Shown here in pieces: positions 25,189 through 39,495 of a stretch of 64,000 bases of DNA. Positions within the stretch are counted from its first letter, which is position 1. Every line of letters begins with the position of its first letter. Below the pieces are notes generated by a model. That model ran no database searches. It was not told the DNA's origin and worked only from the letters and a program-made list of their open reading frames with translations. The stretch is taken from the NCBI GenBank assembly GCA_002421665.1, contig DISH01000007.1:17278-81277 (forward strand). Reading direction: 5' to 3'. This stretch comes from Candidatus Omnitrophica bacterium UBA6215 (GTDB taxonomy: Bacteria; Omnitrophota; Gorgyraeia; Pluralincolimonadales; Pluralincolimonadaceae). Made by a program: the position numbers and the translations under genes.

Positions 25189-25539
25189 TGGTGGAGGCGC
25201 GGGGATTCGAACCCCGGTCCTTAAGTCACTCGCTAAGAGCTCCTACGCGCGTTTCCTGCAATTTATCGTCTCGCCGATACGGTCGCGCAAGCAGGCCCGC
25301 TACCGTAAAGGCCAGCCTTTGTTGTATCTTGTCCCTTCCCCCCAAAGGCGAGAAGAAAGTGACCAGCCTGCTGCGGCGTCACATCCGGCCTCGCAGGCAA
25401 GACCGGAGGACGTGCTGCAATTAAGCAGCTAGCGCGAGTTCATTCGCGTTTAACTTTGTTGTCAGGTTTTAACGAGGCCACCTGACACCCTCGGCGCGCA
25501 ACCCTTAACCCGCTTCTTAAGTCGAAACCTTTCGCCCCC
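25189..25539 (-). ncRNA. ssrA: tmRNA (SsrA), ~351 nt
   Basis: Minus-strand RNA begins GGGGGCGAAAGGUUUCGAC and ends GGGGUUCGAAUCCCCGCGCCUCCACCA (tRNA-Ala-like acceptor with G3-U70 and T-arm). Internal tag ORF ends ...GCG AAU GAA CUC GCG CUA GCU GCU UAA (..ANELALAA*). Directly downstream of smpB. Confidence 0.85.
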
Positions 25540-25992
25540 TTATTCTTTTCCGCGTATCTCGCGCCTTAACTCCCTGTCGGAATCGCGGCGTTTGATATCT
25601 TCGCGTTTGTCATAGAGCTTCTTGCCCTGGGCCAGGGCCACTTCTACCTTCGCCATGCCTCTCTTGAAATATATCTTAAGGGGCACGAGCGTCAGCCCTT
25701 TCTGCGTAAGCCGCCCGAGTATCTTCCTTATCTCGGACTTATGCATAAGCAGCTTGCGCTTCCTCTTAGGCTCGGGGGCAAATCTCCCGGCCTGAGGATA
25801 AGGCGTTATATGCATATTATAAATAAATATCTCGTCTTCGTCTATCCTGGCGAAACTGTCCTTGAGGTTGGCCTTTTTGTCCCTCAACGACTTGACCTCG
25901 GACCCTTGAAGCACTATACCGGCCTCAAAAGACTCGAGGATATGATAATTGTGCCTGGCCTCCCTGTTTGTCGCAACCGTCTCGTCCGCCAT
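25540..25992 (-). CDS. smpB: SsrA-binding protein
   Basis: SmpB signature (TVATNREARHNYHILESFEAGIVLQGSEVKSLR...) and C-terminal basic tail. Start placed at internal Met (MADETV). Confidence 0.9.
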   Translation of the reverse strand: MADETVATNREARHNYHILESFEAGIVLQGSEVKSLRDKKANLKDSFARIDEDEIFIYNMHITPYPQAGRFAPEPKRKRKLLMHKSEIRKILGRLTQKGLTLVPLKIYFKRGMAKVEVALAQGKKLYDKREDIKRRDSDRELRREIRGKE

Positions 25993-26098
25993 TTTAGTCG
26001 GTAATAATATAACATATACGCTCAAAATAAGGCAACCTTTTTATGGTTGCAAATTCGGCCGATAATCGGTATAATTTACTAAGTTTTTAAAGAAAACC

Positions 26099-28126
26099 AT
26101 GGAAGATAACCTTAAGACATTCCTTTCGCTGGTCAAAGTCAACCGGTTCGAGGAAAGATATTCCAAAGATATTACCCCGGATACCTATTTCGGTTTTCCC
26201 CTGGAAAGTATAATACAGGCCGAAAAACGGCTTACTTCCCGGGAAGAACCCTCCGTAGGATATTTCTCTATGGAATACGGCTTGGGAACCAGCATATACA
26301 ACAGCTATAAGTCTTCCTCCCCGCTCTCCGAACCCAATACCCTTCCCAGGCAGAACATATTTTCCAATATGAGGATAAGGGACTACTATTTCCAATTCAG
26401 CATCGGAGAACGCATGATCGACCTGCCGATATACAGCGGAGGCCTCGGCGTCCTCGCGGGAGACAGCCTGAAATCCGCGGCGGACCTTAACGTCTCCCTG
26501 GCCGCGGTCGGTATTCTTTGGAGAAAGGGGTACTTCAAGCAGAATTTCTGGTTTAAGGACGGGCAGGTTCCCGAAGAACTTAATTGGGACCCCTACTCAT
26601 ATCCCGGCCTGATCCCCCTGGACACCGTCATAACCTTGCCTCTTAAAAACGGCGATCTGCTCCTTAGGCTGTGGAAATATTACGTATACAGCTATGACAA
26701 AAAACACACCGTTCCTCTTATACTTTTGGATTCGGACGTGGAAGGCAACCCGCCGGAATCGAGAGGTTTGACGGACCAGCTCTACAGGAGCGATAACTCA
26801 TACTTCAAGATAATGCAGAGGGTCATATTGGGTATCGGCGGCATCAAGGCCTTCGGGGCCCTCGGATATAATATACACAAGTATCACCTGAACGAGGGAC
26901 ATGCTGCAATGGCGCTTGTCGAGATGGCCGACTCGCTTGACAAAAGCAACCTTGCTTCGCTGGAGAACAATTTTGTCTATACCTGCCATACGCCTGTGGC
27001 TGCAGGACACGACCGTTTCCCGATAAAAGAACTCGAGAAGATACTGCCTGACGAAAATATAGACTTCATAAAGAAGAACGGCGCCGAAGACAGCACCGCT
27101 AACCTGACCGTCCTGCTCCTGAATTGCTGCAGGAGCGTAAACGCGGTCGCCAAGAAACACGGCGAGATCACGCGGCTGCAATTTCCCCAATTTGCGCCAA
27201 AGATACAATCTATAACCAACGGTATCCACATTCCCACCTGGATATCCGATGACATAGCGCAGCTTCTCGAAAAATACAGCAACAGGACCGGAACCTGCTC
27301 ATCAGGGCATATGGACCTTCTCGACCTCGAGAATCTAAGGGCAGATGAAAACTTCAGGGCGGACCTCTGGAAAGCCCATCAGGCCAATAAACGCAAGTTA
27401 TCGGAAATATTCGCGAACTGGGACATAAAAGATAACTGCTTTACATTGTGCTGGGCAAGAAGGATAGCGGCTTATAAGAGGCCAAGCCTGCTTTTTCAGG
27501 ACCCGAGACGCCTGGTTGAGATAGCCGAAAAATACGGCCCTATACAGATAATCATAGCCGGTAAGGCCCATCCGAACGACAGCCTTGTGGGAACATATAT
27601 CAACAACATAATGAACACGATAGATTCCCTGGGTTCGAAAGGTTCCGTCCTGAGGATAATAATGCTGGAAAACTATGACATCTTCTTCGGGAAGCTCCTT
27701 ACCAGCTCCGTAGACGTATGGTTGAACAATCCCCTCCCCCCGTTCGAGGCATCCGGGACAAGCGGGATGAAAGCAATACTCAACGGGGTCCTGCAATTGT
27801 CGACCCTCGACGGCTGGGTGGTAGAGGCAGCCGACGCATCCGAGAACCCCGACGCCAACATAGGTGAGATATTCGGCTACAGGCATAATAGCGGCGACCC
27901 TATCGGTAACGAGCTTGACCTGCGCCTCGATTCGGACTCGGCTCAGTTGTATGAAGCCCTTGAAAAGATGGTCAAGCTTTATTACGAGACGGATAAGAAC
28001 GGAAAAACAGATATCGGTTCAAAATGGATCGATATTATGTTAAACTGTATCAAACAAAGCCATTATTTCAACACGTGCAGGATGGTCGGTGAATACCGGG
28101 ACAGGATGTGGTTCGTAAAAGATTAG
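26099..28126 (+). CDS. glgP: Alpha-glucan phosphorylase (GT35; PLP-dependent, archaeal/short-type glycogen/maltodextrin phosphorylase)
   Basis: 675 aa with PLP-Lys motif EASGTSGMK and a phosphorylase core (GGLGVLAGD). Confidence 0.85.
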   Translation: MEDNLKTFLSLVKVNRFEERYSKDITPDTYFGFPLESIIQAEKRLTSREEPSVGYFSMEYGLGTSIYNSYKSSSPLSEPNTLPRQNIFSNMRIRDYYFQFSIGERMIDLPIYSGGLGVLAGDSLKSAADLNVSLAAVGILWRKGYFKQNFWFKDGQVPEELNWDPYSYPGLIPLDTVITLPLKNGDLLLRLWKYYVYSYDKKHTVPLILLDSDVEGNPPESRGLTDQLYRSDNSYFKIMQRVILGIGGIKAFGALGYNIHKYHLNEGHAAMALVEMADSLDKSNLASLENNFVYTCHTPVAAGHDRFPIKELEKILPDENIDFIKKNGAEDSTANLTVLLLNCCRSVNAVAKKHGEITRLQFPQFAPKIQSITNGIHIPTWISDDIAQLLEKYSNRTGTCSSGHMDLLDLENLRADENFRADLWKAHQANKRKLSEIFANWDIKDNCFTLCWARRIAAYKRPSLLFQDPRRLVEIAEKYGPIQIIIAGKAHPNDSLVGTYINNIMNTIDSLGSKGSVLRIIMLENYDIFFGKLLTSSVDVWLNNPLPPFEASGTSGMKAILNGVLQLSTLDGWVVEAADASENPDANIGEIFGYRHNSGDPIGNELDLRLDSDSAQLYEALEKMVKLYYETDKNGKTDIGSKWIDIMLNCIKQSHYFNTCRMVGEYRDRMWFVKD

Positions 28127-28235
28127 GCGGGCCGAAGTGGCGGAACTGGCATACGCGCTACGTTCAGGGCGTAGTGACCGTAAGGTCTTGAGAGTTCAAA
28201 TCTCTCCTTCGGCACCATAAAAAGGAGGCCGGAAG

Positions 28236-28706
28236 ATGGCTATACCCGCAAAGCTCAAGAAGTACCTGGACTCCAATAAGGTCAAATATAAAACCCTCAA
28301 ACACAAACTGGCATACACTGCCCAAGAGATAGCCGCAGCGCAGGAAGTCCCGGGAAAACAGGTCATAAAATCAGTCCTGGTAAAAACCGATAAAGGTTTT
28401 GCGCTCGCAGTCCTGCCGGCTATACACCTGATAGACCTGAAAAAACTCAAGTCCGCGCTCAAATGCAAATCCCTGAAGATCGCCACCGAAAAAGAGATGG
28501 AAAAGACCGTTCCCGATTATAAGCCGGGAGCTATGCCTCCATTCGGCGCCCTCTTCGGGCTCGATACCGTAGCGGACAAGATCCTCAAAGAAGACATAGA
28601 AATAGTATTTAACGGCGGCACTCATACCGACACGGTCAAGATGAAATATTCCGATTTCGAAAAACTCGCCGGGCCAAAAATCGCCGACTTCGGAAAACAC
28701 ATCTAG
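28236..28706 (+). CDS. YbaK/ProX-type aminoacyl-tRNA deacylase domain protein
   Basis: 156 aa YbaK/EbsC-like fold (...KSVLVKTDKGFALAVLP...GAMPPFG...). The next gene starts immediately at the stop. Confidence 0.65.
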   Translation: MAIPAKLKKYLDSNKVKYKTLKHKLAYTAQEIAAAQEVPGKQVIKSVLVKTDKGFALAVLPAIHLIDLKKLKSALKCKSLKIATEKEMEKTVPDYKPGAMPPFGALFGLDTVADKILKEDIEIVFNGGTHTDTVKMKYSDFEKLAGPKIADFGKHI

Positions 28707-31700
28707 ATGGAAAGCGGGAAACGCGAGCTTTCCAGGATCTCCAAAAGACTTACGGACTTCCTCCAGGAACTCCCCCGCCCCGGTTATCTTTGGCCGTATT
28801 CCGTAACTTATCTTCTTGATAAATTCGGCAAAATAAAAAGAGGTAAGTTCAGATATGCCACGCCGGGACAGCACAATTTCGTGATGTCCGAAATAATCGT
28901 CAGAAAAGCCCTCGCCAAGATCATCTACCGGAATACCGCATGGCTCGAGAGAAGCTACAGGAGGGAAAAGAGGTCTATAAACAAGAGGCTCTGCACCCTT
29001 TACGGGACGGTCGAAGACTGTCAAGCCGACGATATCTCTGTAACACCTGGTGCCTTGCGCGAGATATTCCTGCTTGAAAAACGCAAAACCAGCCTGGACA
29101 AGATGCTTGCCGACAAACGGCTTGAAATACAAGGCAAGGTCCTGCATGATTTCATGTCCATATTCGAGGATGATATCAGGAAGGCCAGCAGCATAGAGGA
29201 CTTCACGGACTTTTCGCAGATATTTGCGAACCTAAGGGACGGGGTAAGATCAAACGATAACTATAAAATAAATGAGGCCGTAAACGCGCTTTCGGAAAAG
29301 CTGGTAGTCCCTTCCGAACTTCTTTCCAGAAGGATAATAGGCCACCGCTTGGGCGACCATGAACTCAGCCTTCTGGGAAAGTTCACCAGGGAACTTGATA
29401 ATTACCCGGAATACAAGGATGCCGTCGCCAACCTGAGGGATTTCGGGAGGTATCGCAAGGCAGTCCTGTTAATAGACCAGCTCCGCAAAAGCAAGGATAT
29501 CCTTATCCCCCCTCCTTTCGTAAAAGGCACAAAAGCCCGGATATATGAGGGTCTGACCCGATCGATGCGCCTTTTCTTCGCGACGATGATAGCGATAATA
29601 CCTACCCTCACCGTGTACGGCATCGGGGGAATAAGCCATCTGCCGTTATGTACTTTCATGTGGATGGCAGCTTGTTTCGGGGTTACGTACTATATATCAT
29701 GGCAGCCCTCCCATAAAATGGCCCTGTTCCTGGTCAGCCTTATGGTAAACACACCCGGGCATAAAATGCTCCCGGAGCTCGGAAAATACATAGACTCCAA
29801 CTATACGGAAGACAAGCCGCTTAAAATATCCTATGTAACGGCTAAAAAAAGCGATACGGAATCGGATGCCGAGATAGCCATATTTTATTTCAGGAAAACC
29901 ATCGAAGCCCTGAGGCCGACCCTCGAGACTTTCGGGAAAAAGATATTGCTCGTCATCACTTTCTGGTCGGATACGAAAAATGACAGCATCATAGAATATG
30001 AGGTAAAAAGGCTCGAAGAATTTTCCAGGGAACATCCCTATGATAACCTTGAATTCCTTTACCTGAACAGGTCTAAAAGCGAATGGTTCGACAACACAAA
30101 GCTCGGCATGATAAGAATAGGCGGTTTTGCCGGTAAGGTTGGCGGTATAGGCAACCTGATGCACCTGATGAACACCGGCCAGACCAAACCTTATCTCTTT
30201 ACCGACGAAGGCTTCGAATTCACCCAGAACAGGAATAAACCCCTTATTTGCAGGGTGTGGTCGACGAACCTCGTGAAGGCACTGGGCGTCGACACCGGTA
30301 AGGAGCAGATAACCTCCGAACGGGCCGCCGAACGTATCTTGCGCGGCGACGATATAGATATAGACCCGTCCAGGATATCCGAGTTCTGCGTTATCATGGA
30401 CGATAAGAACGAGCTGTATGCCGGCGAGCTTGAAAAAGCGCTTGCAATACTCCTGCACCCGGAAAACGAACACATAGTGATCGCCCAGCCCCATATAGCC
30501 ATCACCCCTCCTTACCTCAACGGCAAGGCCAAGGAAAGCATCTACTGGAAGATAATGAAGAATGAGCGCGATATAGAGAACGAGATAAACATGAAAGTCA
30601 TCTCCGGGATATACGGCAAGGAGCGCGCATTCTTCGGCAAAGGTTTCGCCAGGACAAAGATATATTACGACAGGGTATTTAAACCTGAGACCCTCTCTCC
30701 TGCCAAGGTTTTGTCCCATGACTGGCAGGAATCGATATTCAGCAGGAACTGCGAGGGCCTTTTGGGTGCCAAGAGGTTTATCGTGAAGAAGGTCTCGGAA
30801 AAACCAGGTTCCGCAGTCCTGAGGATAGACCTTGCCAATACCACAAGGTTCGTACGCCTTGAGAGGGACGCGCAAAAAGACGTACTCGTCTATCATCTCG
30901 ATATCGCTTCCGGGGAATACCGGTTCGTCAGGAAATTCCGCCGCCTGGAAAACCTGGATATGGACGAGGTGGTCAAATACACGGCGAATTTCTACAATAA
31001 TGCGGTCATTGTAGGCGAACGCGACCAGCTGCATTTCGTCACTTACATTATCCGCGACGTCAGGTGGCTTATCGGCGATTTCCAGGCCATAAGGACCCTT
31101 ATATCCTACCGCAGGATACTCACATATTACCACCAGTGGCACCTTAGCTGGGCCATCGGAAGGCTCCTCTCCGATCCCATGCTTTTCTGTTTCATAATAT
31201 TAATGTGCCTCCTTTGGATATTCCCGTTCATCCTTGTAGTGCCGACTAACTCAAATGCGTATTGGATAACTCTTGTCCTATCCTTCTTCGGGATCATATT
31301 TGTCCACAGGTTCATCGACCCCGTAAGGTATATCTTCCGCAGGGCGCGCGCCGAAGGCAGACCTATACGCCCCCTCTCCTTCTCTCTTGAGCTCGTAGAC
31401 CAGTTCTTCGACAGCATCCTCCAGGCGATGGAAACTACCGTGTCTTCTCTGCAGTTAACGGTCATAAAACCGCTGCTTTCATATTCGATATACAAATCAG
31501 AAAAAATCAATAAGGTCCCGGAATGGAAAACTTCCAGTACCCTTTCACTTATGGAGCTCGAGGGCAGGATAACCAGGAACGAGTTCAAGGACATCAGGAT
31601 AGAAGAAGCCCAGAAGATGGGCCTTATAATATCCGCCATAGCGGCAATATACATAATCACGGGCATAGCGCCGATAACGGTTTTCGGCATATTCGGTATA

Positions 31701-34700
31701 CTGCCTTGGGCAGGTTCGCTTATCTTCGGCCGTTACGCTATCTCCGCTATAGGTAAAGTGCGCGACCTTAATACCCGCAAGGCCACTATACAGGAAAGGA
31801 CAAAAAGGCTGTATGTCATAATATCCGCTATCCTTCTCCTGCTGGTAACATTGTCCGCGCTCAGGGACATCCCTAGCTACAATAAACACGACCTTATTAA
31901 ATTCGTCCTCCCGGAATCAAGGGAAAGGTTCAGCTATTCCGCCGAAGAAGAGAGGCTCCTTGGAAAGATGCGCAAGGACCTCGAAAAGATCGAGTTCTAT
32001 ATACCCGACAGGATAGTCGACAGCAAGCTCTCTCCCGTGCTTAAATCCCGCGAGGGAAAGACAAAGCTGATGGCCGAGGTCCTTCCCGTAGAGGATAAAC
32101 TCTCCAGAGCAATACCTCTCTTAAGGCCCGTCACGCGGGATGCTGTAGCTCCCATAATAACCGAGGCGGTCTCCCCCCTCGAAGAACCGGAGCTCTCCGA
32201 CCTGACGGCTTTCAGGGATTTTTTCTCCGCTTCCCACAAGATGGGAAAAAGAAGGCTGTTCACTTCTACTGCCCTCGCCGGGACAAAAATAGCGCTCTCC
32301 ATGCAGTTCTCCGCCGCGGCTATAGCGATAACTGCCGTAGACAGGGTCGAGGGATTGGGCATGATAGCGCGTTACGGCAAGGAATACCCGTGGTTCAATG
32401 TACTCGACCCCCTTACGGGACAGTTCTGGTTCGAGACAAGCAGGGAAACCGGGCTTTCAATGAAAGATATAGCGGAGGTATTCAGGTGGGAGGACACAAA
32501 GAAATACTGGAATGCCGATTTTGCCAAGAAGAAGGGCATCTGGAAACGCTATGAATACCTCCAGAGAGGAATATTATCCCTGTACTATTCCGGATTAGAG
32601 GTCAACGAGCAGAACCTTAGGAAATTCTTTGCTGAATACGACAAGATGCCGCAATTCAGGAAAAAATACCCGGCAGTCCCTCTCAAACCTTTCCGGCTTG
32701 TACCTGAACCGGCAAAGACCCTTCTGCAGCTCATTGGAACGGTAACTTTCTATGTCCCTGTAATCGAGATCATCCCCGCAACCGAGATACCTTTCGGGAC
32801 TATATTAGGCATAGTGGAAACGGTGGTAGCCGGTAAACAAGGTAAGCTGGAATACCTTATAGTAACAGGCATGAAGAACGGCTTGTCCACCGAGGAAGTA
32901 ATGGAACACCTCGGCTTCGACTATGTAAACTATGCATGGCGCAAGACGCGTATCCCGTCAGAAATATATGATGTCAACCGGCAAAGGTTCCTCGCCGATT
33001 ATAAGAAAAAGGGCGTCGATAAGGTTGACTACGAAAGAAGCGACATAAAACTTATATGCATACTCTCCGATTACAGGATGGCCCTCGATACCCGGGAAAC
33101 CCTGGGGTATGAAGAGAAGCCGTCGAATCCCCAGATCAAGGAGACGGCGGACGCGCTGCGCGGATATCTTGTAGACATATGGAACGACGTACAAAAACGT
33201 TATCCGGAGCTCGAAGACGGCATAAAGGCAAAAGGTATAGGCGAATACCTTGCTATTTCATATTACGTGATGTCACGCAGGTATGGATGGGGTCTCGAAC
33301 AATACCTTGATTTCCTTGGCCCGCAGCTAAAGAAGGCCGTAGAGTTAAAGGATAAAGGCATCACTCTCGATGATAGAACGATATATGAGATCATGTTCAA
33401 TAACGAGATACTCCAGAAGGGCCTCTATGACGATCCCAGACTCCAACCGGAAAAGAACGCTGTCTTGATATCCCGCCTGGACAGGCAGATCGAAAAACAA
33501 TCGGATGCCGGCAAGCAGATGACAGGATATATCTGGCTGTCTTCCCTTATGCTGGATGCCGAAAAGAACGGCATAAAAGTTGATCCCGGCGAATTCGCCT
33601 TGAAGTTCATGGAGATATACGAGACGGGGCTGTCGCTGGGCTATACAGAAATACCATGGTGGGAAAAATGCGGATACCTTACCCTGATATACTACAAGGC
33701 CGGGTTCGGGACCACTATGGAACTTTTCGACTACTTCAAGAACGAATTCAGCATGTCCAACACGTGGCTCAAGGATAAACTTCCTCTCCCGGAAGGGTTC
33801 GTACACGGTGTAATGGAAACTACTTATAGGGACATGGGGTACGGCAGTGACCAGGCTGCAATATTGGAAACGCAGACTCCTGAGAAACTTAAGTTTGACA
33901 TGGCATATGAGTTCCTGGCAGCGCTCGTGATAGAGACAGAAACTAACAAACTCAAAATTTCACCCGAAGACCTGGCCTCGGAGTTCATGGCCTTTTACAG
34001 GACCGGATCCGCTTCGGGGTACAACAGGATACCATGGTGGAACATAAGCGGTTACCTGATGCTTGAATACGAAAAGAACAGGGCATTTCACGGATGGGAG
34101 AACATAGACGATTATTTTGCGTACTACACTCCGTTGTTCGCATCCATAAACAAGTGGTTTACGCAGGACCTAAGCCTTCCCGAAGGATTTGAATATGAGA
34201 ACGCTTTCCGCCTCGAGATATTGAAACGTAAGCTGGATCATGATCCCAGGCATGCAAAGGATGGCAGCCGGTCATTACAGGTCATTAAAGACACGGCGGA
34301 GAACCAGACCCCCGTCATCAAACGGTTCAACGCCTATATGACACTAGCCAGGCTTAAAGAGGACTATGCCCTGGATTTCGGGCGGCAACTGGACGATACG
34401 GAAGTCCTGCATTTGGCGGGAATACTCACGACCTTCTGGACCGAACTGCCGGTCAAATATCCGAACCTCCCCCTCTTCGTTCCCGGTATCATTGAAAAGA
34501 TAGCCATTAATTCTCTCGCATTCAATGACTACCGCGATGTTGAAAAAGCTGCTTTCCTCCAGCAGATAAACAGTCTCTGGGATTTAAAAGTGCCCGGGCC
34601 GATAGAATCGGGGATAAGAAAAGAGGTTGAAGAGAAGACAGGCATAGACCTGGATGATGAACGGATCCTTCATTACACCACCTTACAAACGGCCATCGGC

Positions 34701-36233
34701 ATACTCGACAGCCTGGGCGCAGCGGTCATCGAACCGGACATAGTAAGGACCTTACAGCTACGCCAGGCGATCAGGTCCGTTTCTAAACAATATCCCGACC
34801 TGGAGCTGCTCAAACAAGGCAATGCCGAATGGATGGCCGTGTACGCCCTGAAAAAGAAACTGACATTTTATGAGCTCCAGGAGAAATATCTTAAGCCGAT
34901 ACAGCAGATATATAAAGACGCGGCAAACGCCTACTTCCCGAGAGAGATAGATATCATGACCGGGAAACTTAAGGATATAAACGAAAGGGACATCGGGGTA
35001 ATAACTGATATATACGGGCTGAAGGACAAGGGTTTCGCGGCGCAGCCTAAGATAAGCGCGAACGACGTTATCGTAAATGTCATATGGTATCACCTGCAGA
35101 GGGCTTACGATATAGGCATACCCGAGAAAGACATCCCGGTATTCTTCAGGGTATTAAGAGCGGTAAAAGAGAATGACCTCGCGCACTTGGTCTCGATAGA
35201 GTCGGCGGATGAGCTTTCCAAATGGCAGGAAAAGATGGATTCCGCTTCATTTCGCCTCATGACTCTTTATAATGACCCGCGGTCAAGGAAAAAATTCAAG
35301 TCCCCGCCGGACTTCCTTTACAAGTTCCTGTCGAACAGCACCGCGGTCAGGGAGAACCCGGCTATCAGCTCCAAGTTAAGTTCGATCAGGTCCGCGGACG
35401 AAAAGGTCGCCGACTCGCTTGAATTCCTCTGGCCGCTTCTTATGACACTGGAAAATATCTCCCCTTCGGTCATGGAGAATATAGTATCCAATATGAGCTA
35501 TGTGACATCCTCATACAAGGAGCTACTGGGCATGCAGCCTGAAAAGGACTCTGCCGTTGAGTTCAATGAGGCGGTCAATGTCTACCTGACCGGGGAATAC
35601 GGAAAGTTCCTCATAAGGCAAAAAACGAACTACCAAAGGGCGCAGTCTTCGTGGTGGACAAACTACATAGTAAAACTCAGTTACAGGAGGCTGTTTAACG
35701 AGAACCTTGATGAGGCGGAAAGGACAAACCGCAAAATATTGAAGAACATGCAGGTATGGTTCGACAGGGAAAAACTTAAGAACCCGCATAGCTATGTCCT
35801 CAAAAAGATAGTGGAAAACCTTATCGAACACGGTTCGATAAAAAGGATCGGGCTCATGAGGCCTGTCTATAGCGGCAAGAACGAATACAAAAACCGTATA
35901 CTCAGGCTCAACAGATATATTAACCGGCTCGATTCGGAGATAGCCCTGTTAAAATCCGAAAACCGCTATTCTGCCGACCTTGAAAAAATATCGGCCAAAG
36001 CAAAAGAAGATCTCGCGGAAATCGAAAAATCTCCTTCTGAACTCACAAAAAAAGCCATAGAAGCCGAGAGACTCCTGCTTTTCTACAGACAGGTACATAA
36101 CAGGGATTCTTTGTTCCTTACGGCTATGATAGCTGCCGGAATGATAGGTACTATACTGCTATCCCGCCTTATTCTTTTAGTCAAAATAATGTTATCCGGC
36201 ATTGTGCGCCGCCTGCACCCGCTAGAATCCTAG
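28707..36233 (+). CDS. Giant (2508 aa) polytopic membrane protein. Core is OpgH/MdoH- or cyclic-glucan-synthase-like processive GT2 glycosyltransferase flanked by TM bundles. Followed by ~1450-aa alpha-helical extension with tandem ~125-aa repeats and a C-terminal TM anchor.
   Basis: Uninterrupted 7.5-kb ORF. TM clusters at aa ~295-345, ~785-850, ~930-1010 and at the C-terminus. Between the first two clusters: DxD (VIMDDKNE), LSHDWQES (compare OpgH LSHDFVEA / BcsA TED) and RDVRW (compare OpgH RDRRW / QxxRW). Repeats FMEIYETGLSLGYTEIPWW... / FMAFYRTGSASGYNRIPWW... at ~33606-34360. Confidence 0.5.
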   Translation: MESGKRELSRISKRLTDFLQELPRPGYLWPYSVTYLLDKFGKIKRGKFRYATPGQHNFVMSEIIVRKALAKIIYRNTAWLERSYRREKRSINKRLCTLYGTVEDCQADDISVTPGALREIFLLEKRKTSLDKMLADKRLEIQGKVLHDFMSIFEDDIRKASSIEDFTDFSQIFANLRDGVRSNDNYKINEAVNALSEKLVVPSELLSRRIIGHRLGDHELSLLGKFTRELDNYPEYKDAVANLRDFGRYRKAVLLIDQLRKSKDILIPPPFVKGTKARIYEGLTRSMRLFFATMIAIIPTLTVYGIGGISHLPLCTFMWMAACFGVTYYISWQPSHKMALFLVSLMVNTPGHKMLPELGKYIDSNYTEDKPLKISYVTAKKSDTESDAEIAIFYFRKTIEALRPTLETFGKKILLVITFWSDTKNDSIIEYEVKRLEEFSREHPYDNLEFLYLNRSKSEWFDNTKLGMIRIGGFAGKVGGIGNLMHLMNTGQTKPYLFTDEGFEFTQNRNKPLICRVWSTNLVKALGVDTGKEQITSERAAERILRGDDIDIDPSRISEFCVIMDDKNELYAGELEKALAILLHPENEHIVIAQPHIAITPPYLNGKAKESIYWKIMKNERDIENEINMKVISGIYGKERAFFGKGFARTKIYYDRVFKPETLSPAKVLSHDWQESIFSRNCEGLLGAKRFIVKKVSEKPGSAVLRIDLANTTRFVRLERDAQKDVLVYHLDIASGEYRFVRKFRRLENLDMDEVVKYTANFYNNAVIVGERDQLHFVTYIIRDVRWLIGDFQAIRTLISYRRILTYYHQWHLSWAIGRLLSDPMLFCFIILMCLLWIFPFILVVPTNSNAYWITLVLSFFGIIFVHRFIDPVRYIFRRARAEGRPIRPLSFSLELVDQFFDSILQAMETTVSSLQLTVIKPLLSYSIYKSEKINKVPEWKTSSTLSLMELEGRITRNEFKDIRIEEAQKMGLIISAIAAIYIITGIAPITVFGIFGILPWAGSLIFGRYAISAIGKVRDLNTRKATIQERTKRLYVIISAILLLLVTLSALRDIPSYNKHDLIKFVLPESRERFSYSAEEERLLGKMRKDLEKIEFYIPDRIVDSKLSPVLKSREGKTKLMAEVLPVEDKLSRAIPLLRPVTRDAVAPIITEAVSPLEEPELSDLTAFRDFFSASHKMGKRRLFTSTALAGTKIALSMQFSAAAIAITAVDRVEGLGMIARYGKEYPWFNVLDPLTGQFWFETSRETGLSMKDIAEVFRWEDTKKYWNADFAKKKGIWKRYEYLQRGILSLYYSGLEVNEQNLRKFFAEYDKMPQFRKKYPAVPLKPFRLVPEPAKTLLQLIGTVTFYVPVIEIIPATEIPFGTILGIVETVVAGKQGKLEYLIVTGMKNGLSTEEVMEHLGFDYVNYAWRKTRIPSEIYDVNRQRFLADYKKKGVDKVDYERSDIKLICILSDYRMALDTRETLGYEEKPSNPQIKETADALRGYLVDIWNDVQKRYPELEDGIKAKGIGEYLAISYYVMSRRYGWGLEQYLDFLGPQLKKAVELKDKGITLDDRTIYEIMFNNEILQKGLYDDPRLQPEKNAVLISRLDRQIEKQSDAGKQMTGYIWLSSLMLDAEKNGIKVDPGEFALKFMEIYETGLSLGYTEIPWWEKCGYLTLIYYKAGFGTTMELFDYFKNEFSMSNTWLKDKLPLPEGFVHGVMETTYRDMGYGSDQAAILETQTPEKLKFDMAYEFLAALVIETETNKLKISPEDLASEFMAFYRTGSASGYNRIPWWNISGYLMLEYEKNRAFHGWENIDDYFAYYTPLFASINKWFTQDLSLPEGFEYENAFRLEILKRKLDHDPRHAKDGSRSLQVIKDTAENQTPVIKRFNAYMTLARLKEDYALDFGRQLDDTEVLHLAGILTTFWTELPVKYPNLPLFVPGIIEKIAINSLAFNDYRDVEKAAFLQQINSLWDLKVPGPIESGIRKEVEEKTGIDLDDERILHYTTLQTAIGILDSLGAAVIEPDIVRTLQLRQAIRSVSKQYPDLELLKQGNAEWMAVYALKKKLTFYELQEKYLKPIQQIYKDAANAYFPREIDIMTGKLKDINERDIGVITDIYGLKDKGFAAQPKISANDVIVNVIWYHLQRAYDIGIPEKDIPVFFRVLRAVKENDLAHLVSIESADELSKWQEKMDSASFRLMTLYNDPRSRKKFKSPPDFLYKFLSNSTAVRENPAISSKLSSIRSADEKVADSLEFLWPLLMTLENISPSVMENIVSNMSYVTSSYKELLGMQPEKDSAVEFNEAVNVYLTGEYGKFLIRQKTNYQRAQSSWWTNYIVKLSYRRLFNENLDEAERTNRKILKNMQVWFDREKLKNPHSYVLKKIVENLIEHGSIKRIGLMRPVYSGKNEYKNRILRLNRYINRLDSEIALLKSENRYSADLEKISAKAKEDLAEIEKSPSELTKKAIEAERLLLFYRQVHNRDSLFLTAMIAAGMIGTILLSRLILLVKIMLSGIVRRLHPLES
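33606..34360 (+). repeat. Two diverged tandem protein-level repeats (~125 aa each) inside the giant ORF (IPWW..GYL..LPEGF module)
   Basis: Aligned by eye: FMEIYETGLSLGYTEIPWWEKCGYLTLIYYKAG...LPLPEGF versus FMAFYRTGSASGYNRIPWWNISGYLMLEYEKNR...LSLPEGF. Preceded by a weaker third copy. Confidence 0.6.
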
Positions 36234-37763
36234 GTCCCTGTCAAGACTCCTGTAATTGACCGCTTCGGAAATATGCTCCGCGCTTATTACCTCTTTGCCT
36301 GAAAGGTCTGCTATGGTCCTGGCTATCTTGAGGACTTTATCGTATCCGCGGGCGCTTAGGCCCAGTTCCAGTATAGCCAACTTTAACAACTCGGACGCTT
36401 CTCTATCGGTAACGCAATATTTTTCTGTATCTTTCGACCCTAAACGGGCATTACAGGATATAGAAATTCCTTCGTACCTGCATTTTTGGATAGCCCTGGC
36501 ATTCTCAACCCTTTGCCTTATAGTCTCGGATGACTCTCCGCGGCTTTTACCCGACATCTCTTTGTATTTAAGCGAGGGGACTTCCAGATGTATGTCTATC
36601 CTGTCAAGCAGCGGGCCCGATACCTTTGAAAGATAGCGCTGGATCATAGGCGGCGTACAGTGACATTCCCTCTTAGGGTCCGTAAAATAGCCGCACGGGC
36701 ACGGATTCATTGCCGCTACAAGCATAAATTTAGCCGGGTACCTTAAGCTGGTAGAAGCCCTGGATATCACCACCTCCCCTCCTTCCATCGGTTGGCGAAG
36801 CGCCTCAAGGGCATCCCTCCTGAACTCAGGCAATTCGTCAAGAAACAGGACCCCGTTATGCGCGAGACTGATCTCGCCCGGCCTGAGCCTGGTCCCTCCT
36901 CCTACGAGTCCCGCATATGAAATCGTGTGGTGCGGCATCCTGAACGGCCTTCGGGATATGAGATGATTACCAGAATTTAGGAGCCCGGAGACACTATGCA
37001 CCTTGGTCGTTTCAAGCATTTCCTCGAACCTCAGATCGGGCAATATAGTTATGAGCCGCTGCGCAAGCATCGTCTTGCCCGAACCGGGAGGGCCTATCAT
37101 TATCACGTTATGCCCGCCTGCCGCAGCCACTTCAAGGCCGCGTTTGACATGCCATTGACCCTTAACATCGCTGAAATCCATCTCCTGGCCGGCGCCTGCT
37201 GCGTAACAATCTTCCGTCCCTGCGGTAGTATCCGAGGGCGCTATGCCCGAAACCCCCTTTAGGAAATCGACCACATCCCCTAACCTTCGGGCCGGGTATG
37301 TCTTTATCCCGCGCACCACTCCCGCCTCTTTTGAGTTCCCTTGCGGTATGATTATAACGGTATCTTTTCCGCTTATACCGGGTGCTGAGATCATAGGCAA
37401 CATCCCGTTTATGGGCCTCAAACTTCCATCCAGTGAAAGCTCTCCGCAAAAGACCTTGTCTCCCACAAGACACTGATCCAACTCCCCGGTTGCCGCCAAT
37501 ATCCCTACAGCTATCGCCAGGTCATACCCCGCACCTTCCTTGCGCAAATCGGCGGGGGCGAGGTTGATAGTTATCCTCTTCGGAGGGAACTTAAACCCTG
37601 AATTTTTTATCGCGGATATTACCCTGTCTTTGCTCTCTTTTACCGCCGTATCGGCGAGGCCCACGATATTAAAACACGGGAGTCCGCCCGTTATATCCAC
37701 TTCAACCTCAACTTTCCTGGCTTCGATCCCCCATAGACTCCTGCTCTCAACTTTAGCAAGCAT
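36222..37763 (-). CDS. comM: Mg-chelatase-like AAA+ ATPase YifB/ComM family
   Basis: Start at internal Met (MLAKVES...). Lon-like N-domain, Walker A GPPGSGKT, ChlI-type C-terminus. Confidence 0.85.
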   Translation of the reverse strand: MLAKVESRSLWGIEARKVEVEVDITGGLPCFNIVGLADTAVKESKDRVISAIKNSGFKFPPKRITINLAPADLRKEGAGYDLAIAVGILAATGELDQCLVGDKVFCGELSLDGSLRPINGMLPMISAPGISGKDTVIIIPQGNSKEAGVVRGIKTYPARRLGDVVDFLKGVSGIAPSDTTAGTEDCYAAGAGQEMDFSDVKGQWHVKRGLEVAAAGGHNVIMIGPPGSGKTMLAQRLITILPDLRFEEMLETTKVHSVSGLLNSGNHLISRRPFRMPHHTISYAGLVGGGTRLRPGEISLAHNGVLFLDELPEFRRDALEALRQPMEGGEVVISRASTSLRYPAKFMLVAAMNPCPCGYFTDPKRECHCTPPMIQRYLSKVSGPLLDRIDIHLEVPSLKYKEMSGKSRGESSETIRQRVENARAIQKCRYEGISISCNARLGSKDTEKYCVTDREASELLKLAILELGLSARGYDKVLKIARTIADLSGKEVISAEHISEAVNYRSLDRDLGF

Positions 37764-37765
37764 TG

Positions 37766-38143
37766 TCAGCTCCAGAATGCATCCGTTATAATCTCTATGT
37801 TCTTTATATTGTCTTTGCCGTCGAACAGGACCGATATGCAATCAAACCTAGAATCCCGCTCAAGCATATTGTTCTTCAACTGGAAGAACAATGCGGACCT
37901 GCGTATATGGAATTTCTTCGCCTCGTTTATCGTTTCATAAGGTAACCCATGTTCGTCATCGTTGCGGGAACGGACCTCGACAAAGACCAATACGTCGCCA
38001 TCTTCGGCTATTATGTCTATCTCCCCGGATTTACACCTGAACTTTCGCGCGATTATACGGTATCCGCGGGCCGCGAGCAAATCTGCAGCGCGGTCTTCGG
38101 CGAGGTCCCCTAACTGCCTATTCCCCATCCCCAAACGCTTCAA
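37766..38143 (-). CDS. yraN: YraN family (UPF0102) endonuclease
   Basis: 125 aa, ...[21 protein letters not shown]... PD-(D/E)xK motif. Classic neighbour of comM/yifB. Confidence 0.75.
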
Positions 38144-38466: not shown

Positions 38467-39495
38467 TTAGAACCTGTAATACATCCCGAGGGAGGTTATC
38501 GAACCCGAGTATTTTTGGGCGGGATAATTGGACTTGTTCTGGCGGTAGGAATAATTCAAACCCAGGGTAGCGTTCTTCGTAATATCATAATAAAGGGATG
38601 CGCTGGTCACCCAGCCCCTGTCGTGTTCACGGGTCGTGGGATCATCCGGTATGGTCCTGCCCGAATAGTACCTGAACTGCCTGTAATACGACGCATAGGC
38701 GCTAAGCTTCTTGGTTATAAGGTATATCGCGGAAGCGCCCAGCTTGGTGGAATCATAATCATAATAATCCAGGTAACTGTCATTGGAGTCGTTCTTGAAG
38801 TATTCCCCGAACACCTTGAACATGGATTTCTTCATATACATGCCCAGGCTGTAATCCAGGGTGTTCCTCCTGTCTACCCTGTCATAATCAGAGAACCCGC
38901 CCCAACCGTTGAAGGCTTTTCTGTCGGAGAAATTCTTGTAATAATACTGATATTCGAAGGCGTGGAAGAAATTGTTGGGCAGCTTTTGCTTGATGACGAT
39001 GCCGGCCTTATCGCCGACATATTCGCCGTTATCGTTCTTCTGGTACTCCATCATCTCTATGTCATTATACGCGTTCACGGTTATGCCGCCGAAGAGCCTT
39101 CCCTCGAATCCTATTTTCAGGTCCGTATCTATAAGGCTGGCTGAAGTCGCCTCCCAGTAAGTTATGTCGTGGGTGGAAGCTTCAAAAAAGAAATCCCACC
39201 TGCCGTTCATGGGATATGATATGCTTCCGTCGATTATGAATTCCGAGAATGTGTCGGCTTTTCTCTGGGGATCCAGGAAAACGTTGTCGTCATACCCTTG
39301 CGCGGCGGATACCAGCAGCTTGGTCTTGTACCTCTTGTGCTCGCGGAGGGTCTCAACTTTTTTATATGACCTCTCTTCGGCCCTGCCGAGGAACTTTTCG
39401 GTCGTCTCTTCTTCCTTCATATCCGCTGCGCCGGCAAAACCGCCGAAGAATGCCATAGCGACAAACACAGCCGCAACAAAGTTGAGTTTTTTCAT
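38467..39495 (-). CDS. Putative outer-membrane beta-barrel protein (uncharacterised)
   Basis: Signal peptide (MKKLNFVAAVFVAMAFFGGFAGA), alternating amphipathic beta-strand pattern, C-terminal ...YYRF. Confidence 0.45.
   Translation of the reverse strand: MKKLNFVAAVFVAMAFFGGFAGAADMKEEETTEKFLGRAEERSYKKVETLREHKRYKTKLLVSAAQGYDDNVFLDPQRKADTFSEFIIDGSISYPMNGRWDFFFEASTHDITYWEATSASLIDTDLKIGFEGRLFGGITVNAYNDIEMMEYQKNDNGEYVGDKAGIVIKQKLPNNFFHAFEYQYYYKNFSDRKAFNGWGGFSDYDRVDRRNTLDYSLGMYMKKSMFKVFGEYFKNDSNDSYLDYYDYDSTKLGASAIYLITKKLSAYASYYRQFRYYSGRTIPDDPTTREHDRGWVTSASLYYDITKNATLGLNYSYRQNKSNYPAQKYSGSITSLGMYYRF

What the first reader, a model, noticed from the sequence alone, without database searches (positions are those of the whole stretch)
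28707..36233. Giant 2508-aa membrane protein: OpgH/cyclic-glucan-synthase-like glycosyltransferase core plus an uncharacterised ~1450-aa repeat-bearing extension
A single uninterrupted 7.5-kb ORF encodes a polytopic protein. Between two TM bundles sits a cytoplasmic domain carrying the processive-GT2 motif triad in OpgH-like form: DxD (VIMDDKNE), LSHDWQES (OpgH LSHDFVEA) and RDVRW (OpgH RDRRW). This is the architecture of osmoregulated periplasmic glucan synthase OpgH/MdoH and of the GT core of cyclic beta-1,2-glucan synthase. This protein is ~3x longer than OpgH. After a third TM cluster it continues into a largely alpha-helical region with no recognisable catalytic motifs, diverged tandem ~125-aa repeats and a C-terminal coiled coil + TM tail anchor. 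Unlike Cgs, there is no obvious GH94 phosphorylase domain. To my knowledge no glucan synthase with this extension has been described. The length and the diderm, possibly Omnitrophota-like background resemble the poorly understood giant genes of uncultivated bacteria.
Basis: partly seen in the sequence, partly recalled or inferred. Interest (0 to 1): 0.85.

Follow-up and report, generated by a model that had tools for sequence, protein, structure and literature searches.

The report
Giant OpgH/Cgs-like glucan synthase
This 2508-residue membrane protein from an uncultivated Omnitrophota bacterium has a real but very diverged sugar-polymer synthase core, related to the enzymes that make beta-1,2-glucans, fused to a roughly 1400-residue all-helical domain of unknown fold that probably lies in the periplasm.

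Summary
The ORF 28707-36233 (+) is real. It is uninterrupted, encodes 2508 aa, and recurs at full length in independent Omnitrophota assemblies, so it is not a chimera.

Curated models barely detect the core (Pfam Glyco_trans_2_3 E=0.19; NCBIfam MdoH E=0.34). An exhaustive profile search of 1.84 billion proteins found only 43 related clusters, many inside 4,700-7,400-aa giant proteins. [quoted passage not shown] It also matches E. coli OpgH (hhalign 94%; 22 bits against at most 2.7 for shuffles) but not BcsA or PgaC.

The Cgs UDP-binding Asp residues, catalytic base and RW arginine map to D422, D565, D672 and R786. The third DxD position is an invariant Lys (D-[DN]-K-N) throughout the giant branch. 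That branch also has a roughly 80-residue beta insertion and a GERD motif.

This is a new variant of a known kind. The product and the role of the extension are unknown.

The parts
28707..36233 (+). Whole ORF, 2508 aa plus stop codon
   Evidence: Full-length homologues at 56-96% identity occur in independent assemblies.
28707..29561 (+). N-terminal cytoplasmic helical domain, aa 1-285. It carries the conserved ELPRxGxLWP...FxYxTPxQH motif.
   Evidence: Invariant columns. The domain is shared with P0006, P0007 and P0008. No Pfam hit.
29562..29756 (+). TM1-TM2 hairpin plus a short hydrophobic segment, aa 286-350
   Evidence: Hydropathy and flanking charges.
29757..31166 (+). Cytoplasmic GT-A-type glycosyltransferase domain of the OpgH/Cgs (GT2/GT84) type, aa 351-820
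   Evidence: The family profile hits Cgs 8rf0/8rf9 at E 1.6e-6 and OpgH at hhalign 94% and 22 bits. AF2 gives a beta-alpha-beta pattern at aa ~372-565 with pLDDT 65-89.
29967..29975 (+). S421-D422-T423. D422 aligns with the UDP-binding D527 of Cgs and with the 'LSDS' of OpgH.
   Evidence: residue roles from PMC10901819.
30135..30155 (+). K477-V-G-G-I-G-N483. This is the KxGN motif (OpgH KRKSGNI).
   Evidence: K477 is nearly invariant and a Gly of this motif is invariant in A3.
30399..30410 (+). D565-D566-K567-N568, a degenerate DxD. D565 is invariant and aligns with Cgs D624. Lys replaces the third-position Asp.
30714..30722 (+). S670-H671-D672. D672 aligns with the catalytic base D739 of Cgs and with the SHD of OpgH.
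30759..31001 (+). Family-specific all-beta insertion, aa 685-765, between the catalytic base and the RW motif
   Evidence: It is present in the giant branch and absent in the small members. The shorter OpgH spacing between SHD and RDRRW was read by eye. AF2 gives five strands with pLDDT 62-82.
31014..31067 (+). G770-E-R-D773 motif and R783-D-V-R786-W787. The latter is the R/QxxRW motif, and R786 aligns with Cgs R773.
   Evidence: weak NCBIfam MdoH hit; hhalign.
31167..31868 (+). TM3-TM7 with a cytoplasmic helical loop (aa 873-968); the whole part is aa 821-1054
   Evidence: Hydropathy and flanking charges. The region is matched by the family profile in many relatives.
31869..36116 (+). All-alpha extension, aa 1055-2470, predicted to be periplasmic and bracketed by TM7 and TM8
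32328..33086 (+). Extension module A, aa 1208-1460. It is as conserved as the GT domain.
   Evidence: 86% identity to P0002 against 74% overall. Homologous patches in P0031/34/35/36/39, P0018 and P0027.
33240..34355 (+). Tandem repeats of about 125-150 aa: aa 1512-1587 (weak), 1600-1731 and 1726-1883
   Evidence: The middle part of the extension (about aa 1130-2020, which includes the repeats) has no counterpart in P0006.
34770..35846 (+). Extension module C, aa 2022-2380. It is conserved in every relative found to carry an extension.
   Evidence: P0006 E 9e-55; patches in P0031/34/35/39, P0018 and P0027.
35847..36116 (+). Coiled-coil-like segment, aa 2381-2470
   Evidence: Only weak SMC-like and keratin matches. 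Low pLDDT at its start.
36117..36230 (+). TM8 tail anchor (aa 2472-2494) plus a short basic C-terminal tail
28236..28706 (+). YbaK/aminoacyl-tRNA-editing-domain gene. Its stop codon abuts the start codon of the giant ORF.
   Evidence: Pfam tRNA_edit E 3e-28. The same arrangement is seen in L004 but not in L005 or L012.
26099..28126 (+). GT35-type alpha-glucan phosphorylase gene upstream. It is separated from the YbaK gene by tRNA-Leu at 28131-28217.
   Evidence: Pfam Phosphorylase E 8e-35; tRNA. Synteny is kept in L004 only. A promoter-like site lies at 26047-26075.

Best explanation
The gene encodes an inner-membrane, processive, inverting hexosyl (most likely glucosyl) transferase. It belongs to a deep, previously unannotated branch of the OpgH/cyclic-glucan-synthase clade of GT2.

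The cytoplasmic GT-A domain (aa 351-820) would bind a nucleotide-glucose through D422 and D565. It would use D672 as the catalytic base and R786/W787 to hold the acceptor end. It would feed the growing chain into a channel formed by TM3-TM6, as OpgH is thought to do.

In this branch the metal-binding third residue of the DxD motif is an invariant Lys (K567). This Lys may neutralise the diphosphate in place of Mg2+/Mn2+. This step is inferred.

After TM7 the chain leaves the cytoplasm. The 1400-residue all-helical extension is held at both ends by TM7 and TM8. It would sit in the periplasm above the channel and receive, guide or retain the nascent polymer. That would be a built-in counterpart of separate periplasmic partners such as BcsB or OpgG.

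What is shown: homology of the core to Cgs/OpgH, conservation of their catalytic residues, the helical nature of the extension, and its recurrence in distant relatives.

What is inferred: activity, donor, linkage, topology and the role of the extension.
For: (1) A family profile hits only Cgs/NdvB in the whole PDB (E 1.6e-6, three collinear stretches). It hits OpgH at hhalign 94% (E 1e-7) and at 22 bits against at most 8.3 and at most 2.7 bits for shuffles. BcsA and PgaC score below zero.

(2) The Cgs functional residues D527, D624, D739 and R773 (PMC10901819) align with D422, D565, D672 and R786. D565, S670 and E771 are invariant. K477, H671, D672, R783 and W787 are nearly invariant across 23 sequences at 20-67% identity.

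(3) Transitive links to recognised families exist. The small member P0033 passes Pfam's Glycos_transf_2 threshold (24.5 bits against 23.3). The member P0046 fuses this GT domain to a GH144 endo-beta-1,2-glucanase domain (Pfam E 2e-63; PDB 5gzh E 6e-45). P0046 also sits next to a gene that fuses an OEP domain to a GH144 domain.

(4) Glucose-1-phosphate metabolism lies nearby in two lineages: a GT35 phosphorylase here and in L004, and a GlgC-like nucleotidyltransferase in the Polyangiaceae locus. The 38%-identical relative P0006 sits among TPR, SGNH/GDSL-TPR, CHASE2-GGDEF and Wzz-like genes.

(5) The GT domain and extension module A are the most conserved regions. Extension modules A and C recur with the core in Myxococcota and in 5-6.5-kaa giant proteins.

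(6) Hydropathy and K/R counts place the GT domain inside and the extension outside.
Against: Curated models do not reach threshold: Pfam E 0.19, and the NCBIfam MdoH equivalog scores 9 bits against a cut-off of 884.

The narrow 7-sequence profile sees neither OpgH nor any PDB entry.

The AF2 model of the core is poor (mean pLDDT 52) and gave no significant Foldseek match, so the GT-A fold is not confirmed structurally.

The canonical DxD motif is not met: Lys occupies position 3.

The first UDP-binding Asp is Asn in many relatives.

The Cgs priming tyrosine Y694 has no conserved counterpart (my reading of the alignment; role from PMC11842490).

No OpgG/OpgD, GH144, GH94 or outer-membrane export gene was found among the window ORFs scanned (not every ORF was scanned).

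Neighbours are not conserved beyond the 74% identity level.

The GH144 and OEP links come from the most distant branch of the family (E 2e-5 to the core profile).

The topology rests on hydropathy only.
Confidence: 0.55

Rival explanations
1. The core is an active processive GT2 synthase, but the product is not a beta-1,2-glucan. It makes another surface or periplasmic polysaccharide. The helical extension then acts as a trans-periplasmic scaffold, as in synthase-dependent exopolysaccharide systems (BcsB/BcsC, PelB, AlgK and PgaA-like roles).
For: The only relative outside the immediate clade that shares both the N- and C-terminal modules (P0006, 38% identity) lies between TPR proteins, one of them with an SGNH/GDSL domain, a CHASE2-GGDEF cyclase and a Wzz/GNVR-AAA_31 gene. 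This is typical exopolysaccharide company.

The divergence from OpgH/Cgs is very large (22-30 bits). The active site is altered by the DxK motif, the beta insertion and the GERD motif. Specificity could therefore have changed.

The extension resembles helical-repeat proteins only generically.
Against: Among membrane GT2 synthases tested, only the beta-1,2-glucan enzymes are recognised by the family profile. BcsA and PgaC score negative, and no chitin, hyaluronan or cellulose synthase in the PDB reaches E<=10.

Family members are fused to or adjacent to GH144 beta-1,2-glucanase domains. Glucose-1-P enzymes are neighbours.

No exopolysaccharide genes flank the window gene.
Confidence: 0.27
2. 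The GT-like core is catalytically dead or repurposed, because the DxD motif is lost. The protein would then be mainly a structural or regulatory envelope protein, for example a membrane-anchored periplasmic scaffold or a morphology regulator that keeps only substrate binding.
For: Lys replaces the metal-binding Asp of the DxD motif throughout the giant branch. The first UDP-binding Asp is Asn in many members.

OpgH has regulatory roles beyond synthesis in other bacteria (cited in PMC11842490).

More than half of the protein is non-enzymatic-looking helical repeat and coiled coil.
Against: The catalytic base (SHD), the KxGN, HPxN...QP and FGKG motifs and the RxxRW motif are invariant or nearly invariant across sequences as low as 20% identical. 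The GT domain is the most conserved part of the protein. Such a pattern is not expected for a dead enzyme.

The D-x-K change is itself strictly conserved. That points to a functional replacement rather than decay.
Confidence: 0.12
3. The long ORF is an artefact: an assembly chimera, or a fusion of two genes through a sequencing error.
For: A related Polyangiaceae locus carries the protein as two adjacent genes, split after the SHD motif. Fusion and fission therefore do occur in this family.
Against: The same 2508-2515-aa ORF is found in at least six independent assemblies from different projects at 56-96% identity and aligns end to end. Composition is uniform across the ORF. Every region is under comparable conservation.
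Confidence: 0.01

Closest known systems
[quoted passage not shown]
   Same: It is the only solved protein that the family profile recognises (E 1.6e-6).

The order of motifs is the same: SD, KxG, D-x-[D/K], HPxN, QP, GKG, SHD, RxxRW-GDxQ. The UDP-binding Asp residues, the catalytic base and the RW arginine are conserved.

The GT domain lies between TM helices, and the protein is very large and multi-domain.
   Different: No GH189 cyclisation domain and no GH94 phosphorylase domain.

The priming Tyr694 is not conserved. The third DxD residue is Lys. There is an extra beta insertion of about 80 aa and a GERD motif.

The extension is predicted to be periplasmic and ends in a TM anchor, whereas the Cgs accessory domains are cytoplasmic.

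The match is only 30 bits, far outside GT84 as a family.
OpgH/MdoH, osmoregulated periplasmic glucan glucosyltransferase (E. coli b1049; GT2)
   Same: Collinear profile matches are found at the SDS/KxGN, SHD and RDRRW-plus-TM segments (22 bits against at most 8.3 for shuffles; hhalign 94%).

The SHD and RDxRW motif spellings are nearly identical. The enzyme is an inner-membrane synthase thought to release its product into the periplasm (PMC11842490).
   Different: OpgH has 847 aa and lacks the N-terminal domain, the beta insertion and the extension.

The NCBIfam MdoH equivalog scores 9 bits against a cut-off of 884.

OpgH has a canonical D-A-D motif. Its periplasmic partners OpgG/OpgD are separate proteins, and none was found among the window ORFs scanned.
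BcsA-BcsB cellulose synthase, including fused AcsAB forms (architecture only; from my own knowledge, not tested)
   Same: A membrane GT2 synthase is coupled to a large periplasmic domain that is held by a C-terminal TM anchor and sits over the translocation channel.
   Different: There is no sequence relationship: BcsA scores -7 to -9 bits. BcsB is rich in beta structure, with carbohydrate-binding and flavodoxin-like domains, whereas this extension is all alpha.
Giant multi-enzyme proteins of Omnitrophota ('Archaeovorins'; bioRxiv 10.1101/2023.11.21.568195 and 10.64898/2026.06.07.730766)
   Same: Same phylum. The same GT core is embedded in proteins of 4,762-7,397 aa. One of these also carries GDE_C and methyltransferase domains, which are domain types listed for such giants.
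   Different: Term searches of those two papers found GT5, GT1, starch-synthase and similar domains, but no mention of OpgH or GT2.

At 2508 aa this protein is below their 'giant' range, and it has no other recognisable enzyme domain.

Membership tests
Membrane-embedded processive GT2 synthases of the OpgH/Cgs (GT2/GT84) clade | Significant match to curated family models (Pfam Glyco_trans_2_3 / Glycos_transf_2; NCBIfam MdoH) | tested here: not met
   PF13632 gives E 0.19 and 12 bits against a cut-off of 27. NF003963 gives E 0.34 and 9 bits against a cut-off of 884.
Membrane-embedded processive GT2 synthases of the OpgH/Cgs (GT2/GT84) clade | Statistically supported homology to a characterised member | tested here: met
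   The family profile A3 hits Cgs 8rf0/8rf9 at E 1.6e-6 as the only PDB hits. OpgH gives hhalign 94% and 22 bits against at most 2.7 for shuffles. BcsA and PgaC score negative.
Membrane-embedded processive GT2 synthases of the OpgH/Cgs (GT2/GT84) clade | First nucleotide-binding Asp (Cgs D527, BcsA D179) | tested here: met
   D422 in S-D-T aligns with the 'SD' of Cgs and OpgH. It is Asn in many relatives.
Membrane-embedded processive GT2 synthases of the OpgH/Cgs (GT2/GT84) clade | DxD motif: both Asp residues present for NDP and metal binding | tested here: not met
   D565 (equivalent to Cgs D624) is invariant, but the third position is K567. The giant branch has D-[DN]-K-N, whereas the small members, OpgH and Cgs have D-A-D.
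Membrane-embedded processive GT2 synthases of the OpgH/Cgs (GT2/GT84) clade | Catalytic base Asp in the (S/T)(H/E)D motif | tested here: met
   S670-H671-D672 aligns with Cgs D739 and with the OpgH SHD. S670 is invariant, and H671 and D672 are at least 90% conserved.
Membrane-embedded processive GT2 synthases of the OpgH/Cgs (GT2/GT84) clade | Q/RxxRW motif followed by an interface helix and TM helices | tested here: met
   R783-D-V-R786-W787-L-I-G-D aligns with RQHRWARGD of Cgs and RDRRWCHGN of OpgH, and is followed by TM3-TM4.
Membrane-embedded processive GT2 synthases of the OpgH/Cgs (GT2/GT84) clade | GT-A fold of the catalytic domain | tested here: inconclusive
   AF2 gives a Rossmann-like beta-alpha-beta pattern for aa ~372-565 (pLDDT 65-89). 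The rest of the model is below 50, and Foldseek found nothing significant.
Membrane-embedded processive GT2 synthases of the OpgH/Cgs (GT2/GT84) clade | Catalytic domain on the cytoplasmic face | tested here: inconclusive
   Hydropathy and positive-inside counts are consistent with this. No dedicated topology predictor or experiment was used.
Membrane-embedded processive GT2 synthases of the OpgH/Cgs (GT2/GT84) clade | Makes a beta-1,2-glucan from UDP-glucose | not testable with these tools
   Only circumstantial evidence exists: GH144 fusions and neighbours in a distant branch, and glucose-1-P enzymes nearby.
[quoted passage not shown] | GH189-type cyclisation domain and C-terminal GH94 phosphorylase domain | tested here: not met
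[quoted passage not shown] | Priming tyrosine (Y694 in the A. tumefaciens enzyme) | tested here: not met
   In the alignment, Y694 falls opposite N625/E626 (my reading). No conserved Tyr is found there in the family. The role of Y694 is from PMC11842490.
OpgH/MdoH proper | Protein of about 850 aa working with separate periplasmic OpgG/OpgD | tested here: not met
   The protein is three times longer. No MdoG-type gene was found among the window ORFs scanned, and not every ORF was scanned.

The most novel reading that the evidence does not exclude
This family would be a new class of single-polypeptide synthase-plus-conduit machines. A metal-independent OpgH/Cgs-like glucan synthase, with Lys replacing the DxD metal ligand, would be covalently joined to a novel all-alpha periplasmic apparatus anchored at both ends in the inner membrane. 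That apparatus would shape, retain or export the polymer. The same membrane module would be the unrecognised anchor and polymerase around which some multi-thousand-residue Omnitrophota giant proteins are built.
Probability: 0.2. Interest if true: 0.8.

Novelty: new variant of a known kind. Interest (0 to 1): 0.6.

Why it matters
Beta-1,2-glucan synthases (OpgH, Cgs) matter for osmoadaptation, symbiosis and virulence, and only two architectures are known. This family would add a third, deeply diverged one.

It has an altered active site (D-x-K instead of DxD, plus an extra beta domain). It also has a very large built-in extracytoplasmic domain with no detectable relative among solved structures.

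The family is extremely rare: 43 clusters among 1.84 billion representative proteins. None of the members whose source names I looked up carries an annotation. It occurs in Omnitrophota and Myxococcota.

Its core also sits inside proteins of 4,700-7,400 residues. It therefore gives a first functional handle, a membrane-embedded sugar polymerase, on part of the 'dark' sequence of the giant proteins of uncultivated bacteria.

If the Lys really replaces the metal, it would be a natural example of a metal-independent member of a GT2 clade that is normally metal-dependent.

Tried and rejected
(1) Direct Pfam and NCBIfam scans of the whole protein gave only sub-threshold hits.

(2) PDB phmmer with the single protein, and hmmsearch with the narrow 7-sequence profiles A2 and A1, gave nothing relevant.

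(3) hhalign of A2 against OpgH was marginal (E 0.056). The A2 HMM against OpgH with 2000 shuffles was not significant.

(4) AF2 of the core (aa 275-1060) with 7 sequences gave mean pLDDT 52. Foldseek against the PDB returned noise.

(5) The search for homologous proteins with the 23-sequence alignment returned only one new protein, because of the word prefilter.

(6) The search for related loci with A3 failed because the alignment has no conserved 7-10-mer. A2 worked.

(8) I tested the idea that the hydrophobic stretch aa 1338-1375 is an extra TM segment. It is rejected because it contains acidic residues and is deleted in the Polyangiaceae-type relatives.

(9) The afdb50 fold library was unavailable.

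(10) A conserved operon partner was sought. The phosphorylase-YbaK synteny holds only among close relatives.

(11) Term searches of two papers on Omnitrophota giant genes found no mention of OpgH or GT2.
Full report
OBSERVATION

The window carries one uninterrupted ORF at 28707-36233 on the + strand. It encodes 2508 aa and starts with ATG. Base composition across it is the same as in the flanks (GC 0.48-0.49).

Kyte-Doolittle hydropathy shows hydrophobic segments at aa 288-333, 822-872, 970-1012, 1034-1054 and 2472-2494, and a weaker one at 1338-1370.

Internal repeats are real. aa 1607-1740 aligns with aa 1733-1883 at 33% identity, E 1e-19. A repeat HMM finds 1600-1731 and 1726-1883, and a third weak copy at 1512-1587, E 4e-4.

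The ORF is not an assembly artefact. Homologues of 2508-2515 aa at 94, 74, 74, 74 and 56% identity align end to end. They sit on independent contigs from JGI, NCBI and ENA. Seven GTDB genomes carry relatives at 64-96% identity. Five are named Candidatus Omnitrophota and two 'uncultured Planctomycetia'. The window also encodes AsmA/YhdP-like, MlaE/MlaF and OprB-porin proteins, so the host is diderm.

WHAT THE CORE IS

Off-the-shelf models barely detect it. Pfam Glyco_trans_2_3 gives E=0.19 at aa 758-851, and NCBIfam MdoH gives E=0.34 at aa 777-835. PDB phmmer gives nothing. A profile of the seven close homologues (A2, aa 275-1060) finds nothing in the PDB and does not score E. coli OpgH above shuffles.

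I then ran that profile exhaustively against 1.84 billion representative proteins. Only 43 had E<=1e-3 and 34 had E<=1e-10. No ordinary OpgH or GT2 sequences appeared. This is a rare, separate family.

Its members fall into five groups:
- The window clade.
- Proteins of 1,000-2,000 aa.
- Seven giants of 4,762-7,397 aa (P0010, P0017, P0018, P0023, P0027, P0042, P0044).
- Pairs of 'half' proteins.
- A few small proteins of 555-626 aa (P0029, P0033, P0041, P0043), plus P0046 and P0047.

An alignment of 23 diverse GT domains shows these shared motifs:
- a first beta strand followed by S-[DN]-T
- G-x-x-K-x-G-[NG]
- D-[DN]-K-N in the large proteins, against S-D-A-D-N in the small ones
- HPxN...QP
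- F/Y-G-K-G
- S-H-D-[WF]-Q-E
- in the large proteins only, a beta insertion of about 80 residues and a GERD motif
- R-D-x-R-W-x-x-G-D

[quoted passage not shown] The hit has E=1.6e-6 and 30 bits, in three collinear stretches that pair the motifs one for one.

Against E. coli OpgH, hhalign gives 94% probability, E 1.1e-7. hmmsearch gives 22.1 bits, where the best of 2000 shuffles reaches 8.3. In a second test OpgH scores 21.6-22.1 bits against at most 2.7 for shuffles, while E. coli BcsA (-7 to -9) and PgaC (-1 to -12) are not recognised. The relationship is therefore specific to the OpgH/Cgs clade, not to membrane GT2 enzymes in general.

The Cgs structure paper identifies D527 and D624 as the UDP ligands, D739 as the catalytic base and R773 as the RW arginine (PMC10901819). 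Through the alignment these correspond to D422, D565, D672 and R786 of the window protein.

Two transitive links reinforce this. P0033 passes Pfam's own Glycos_transf_2 threshold at the DxD region (24.5 bits against 23.3). P0046 joins this GT domain to a C-terminal domain that is a GH144 endo-beta-1,2-glucanase (Pfam PF10091 E 2e-63; PDB 8xul E 1e-61, 5gzh E 6e-45). Its upstream neighbour is a gene that fuses an OEP (TolC-like) domain to a GH144 domain.

WHERE THE CORE DEPARTS FROM THE KNOWN ENZYMES

The second Asp of the DxD motif is Lys in every member of the large-protein branch (K567 here). The small members, OpgH and Cgs have D-A-D.

The first nucleotide-binding Asp is Asn in many relatives.

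By my reading of the alignment, the Cgs priming tyrosine Y694 (PMC11842490) falls opposite N625/E626. No conserved Tyr is found there.

An insertion at aa 685-765 separates the catalytic base from the RW motif. AF2 predicts it as five beta strands with pLDDT 62-82.

The AF2 model of the whole core was poor (mean pLDDT 52). Only aa ~372-565 was confident, with a Rossmann-like beta-alpha-beta pattern, and Foldseek returned nothing significant. The GT-A fold is therefore inferred from homology and not confirmed.

THE EXTENSION

aa 1055-2508 has no Pfam hit and no PDB sequence relative even with a profile.

It is not a lineage-specific add-on. phmmer finds collinear homologous patches in several proteins. 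These are the 1611-aa relative P0006 (aa 2022-2488, E 9e-55), four proteins of about 2,300 aa (P0031, P0034, P0035, P0039), P0036, and the giants P0018 and P0027.

Alignments define module A (aa 1208-1460) and module C (aa 2022-2380). Module A is as conserved as the GT domain: 86% identity to P0002 against 74% overall. P0006 has no counterpart of the middle part of the extension (about aa 1130-2020), which includes the repeats.

P0031 comes from a Polyangiaceae (Myxococcota) MAG. In its locus the protein is split into two adjacent genes, immediately after the SHD motif. A GlgC-like glucose-1-phosphate nucleotidyltransferase lies upstream.

The extension is thus an all-alpha, partly repetitive structure with no detectable relative among solved structures. 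It ends in a segment with weak coiled-coil-type matches and a TM helix.

TOPOLOGY (INFERRED)

The predicted order is:
1. N-terminus inside
2. TM1-2 hairpin
3. GT domain inside
4. TM3-4 hairpin
5. basic loop inside (5 K/R just after TM4)
6. TM5-6 hairpin
7. basic loop inside (6 K/R, 2 D/E)
8. TM7 crossing outwards
9. extension outside
10. TM8 crossing inwards
11. short basic tail

The hydrophobic stretch 1338-1375 contains acidic residues and is deleted in the Polyangiaceae-type proteins, so it is not an obligatory TM segment. On this reading the 1400-residue extension is periplasmic and tethered to the inner membrane at both ends.

GENOMIC CONTEXT

Upstream on the same strand lie three genes:
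- a GT35-type alpha-glucan phosphorylase (26099-28126)
- tRNA-Leu(CAG) (28131-28217)
- a YbaK/tRNA-editing-domain gene (28236-28706), whose stop codon abuts the giant ORF's ATG

A promoter-like site precedes the phosphorylase gene. A ComM/YifB-like Mg-chelatase gene converges downstream and overlaps the giant ORF by 12 bp.

This arrangement is kept in the 74% relative. It is not kept in the 56-64% relatives, which sit in housekeeping surroundings. The 38% relative P0006 is flanked by TPR proteins, one with an SGNH/GDSL domain, a CHASE2-GGDEF cyclase and a Wzz-like gene.

No OpgG/OpgD, GH144 or GH94 gene was found among the window ORFs I scanned.

MECHANISM PROPOSED

The most likely function is a processive, inverting glucosyltransferase. 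It would polymerise glucose from a nucleotide sugar on the cytoplasmic face and thread the chain through its TM3-TM6 bundle, as proposed for OpgH. The tethered periplasmic helical domain would receive, guide or retain the polymer.

K567 may substitute for the divalent cation. This is inferred from its strict conservation at a metal-ligand position.

My confidence that this is an active polysaccharide synthase of this clade with an extracytoplasmic extension is about 0.55. My confidence that the product is specifically a beta-1,2-glucan is lower, about 0.3.

The rivals, with my confidence in each, are:
- an active synthase making a different polymer (0.27), supported by the company P0006 keeps
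- a repurposed or inactive GT-like scaffold (0.12), which the near-invariance of the catalytic motifs argues against
- an artefact (0.01)

COMPARISON AND NOVELTY

The protein works like OpgH/Cgs, but it is not a member of either family as curated. It fails the Pfam and NCBIfam thresholds and lacks the canonical DxD. It lacks the GH189 and GH94 domains and the priming Tyr of Cgs, and it is three times the size of OpgH.

The fused periplasmic, tail-anchored domain recalls BcsA-BcsB in architecture only.

None of the family members whose source names I looked up carries an annotation. Term searches of two papers on Omnitrophota giant genes found GT5, GT1, starch-synthase and similar domains, but no mention of OpgH or GT2.

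I rate it a new variant of a known kind: a known catalytic clade with an unusual active-site change, joined to a structurally novel extension. Interest is 0.6.

Noticed in passing
window 25189-26025 (- strand): A tmRNA gene (tag peptide ANELALAA) lies directly next to smpB (25540-26025).
   Followed up: no
window 28131-28217 (+): tRNA-Leu(CAG) sits between the alpha-glucan phosphorylase gene and the YbaK-like gene that abuts the giant ORF. A tRNA His/Arg/Pro cluster lies at 15451-15835 (-).
   Followed up: no
window 1-4000: This region has low GC (0.37-0.43 against about 0.50 elsewhere). The 660-aa ORF at 1123-3105 and the ORF at 3080-3577 have no Pfam hit. It may be a foreign island.
   Followed up: no
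window 7195-14171 (- strand): A carbohydrate cluster lies here: a 756-aa GT4-type glycosyltransferase, a GH130 mannoside-phosphorylase-like protein, an MFS sugar transporter, an OprB carbohydrate porin and an NAD-dependent epimerase.
   Followed up: no
window 15941-18862 (+) and 41146-42756 (-): An AsmA/YhdP-like 973-aa protein and an MlaE/MlaF-type ABC pair are encoded here. These are outer-membrane lipid-transport markers of a diderm envelope.
   Followed up: no
window 51389-54714 (- strand): Two tandem D-Ala-D-Ala-ligase-like ATP-grasp genes lie next to a lysine-2,3-aminomutase-like radical-SAM gene.
   Followed up: no
window 36222-37841 (-), 38467-41139: A ComM/YifB-like Mg-chelatase gene converges on the giant ORF and overlaps its last 12 bp. 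Beyond it lie a FecR-domain gene and two ORFs of 348 and 463 aa with no Pfam hit.
   Followed up: no
L014 5091-15044 (Polyangiaceae MAG GCA_035715825.1): This is a split-gene version of the family. A 953-aa N-half ends just after the SHD motif and is followed by the 2347-aa C-half P0031, so the GT domain is divided between two polypeptides. A GlgC-like NTP-transferase lies upstream and a lipoprotein-like gene downstream.
   Followed up: partly
L017 492-7176 (GCA_018238565.1): Family member P0046 has the GT domain plus a C-terminal GH144 beta-1,2-glucanase domain. It is preceded by a gene that fuses an outer-membrane OEP (TolC-like) domain to another GH144 domain. This looks like a possible dedicated beta-1,2-glucan export and processing locus.
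   Followed up: partly
L001 5173-18256: The 1611-aa relative P0006 is flanked by an SGNH/GDSL-TPR protein, a TPR protein, a CHASE2-GGDEF diguanylate cyclase and a Wzz/GNVR-AAA_31 protein. The locus looks like an exopolysaccharide locus.
   Followed up: no
proteins P0010, P0017, P0018, P0023, P0027, P0042, P0044: The same GT and TM core is embedded in proteins of 4,762-7,397 aa. P0010 also carries GDE_C (amylo-alpha-1,6-glucosidase) and methyltransferase domains. P0017 has no Pfam hit at all over 4,762 aa.
   Followed up: partly
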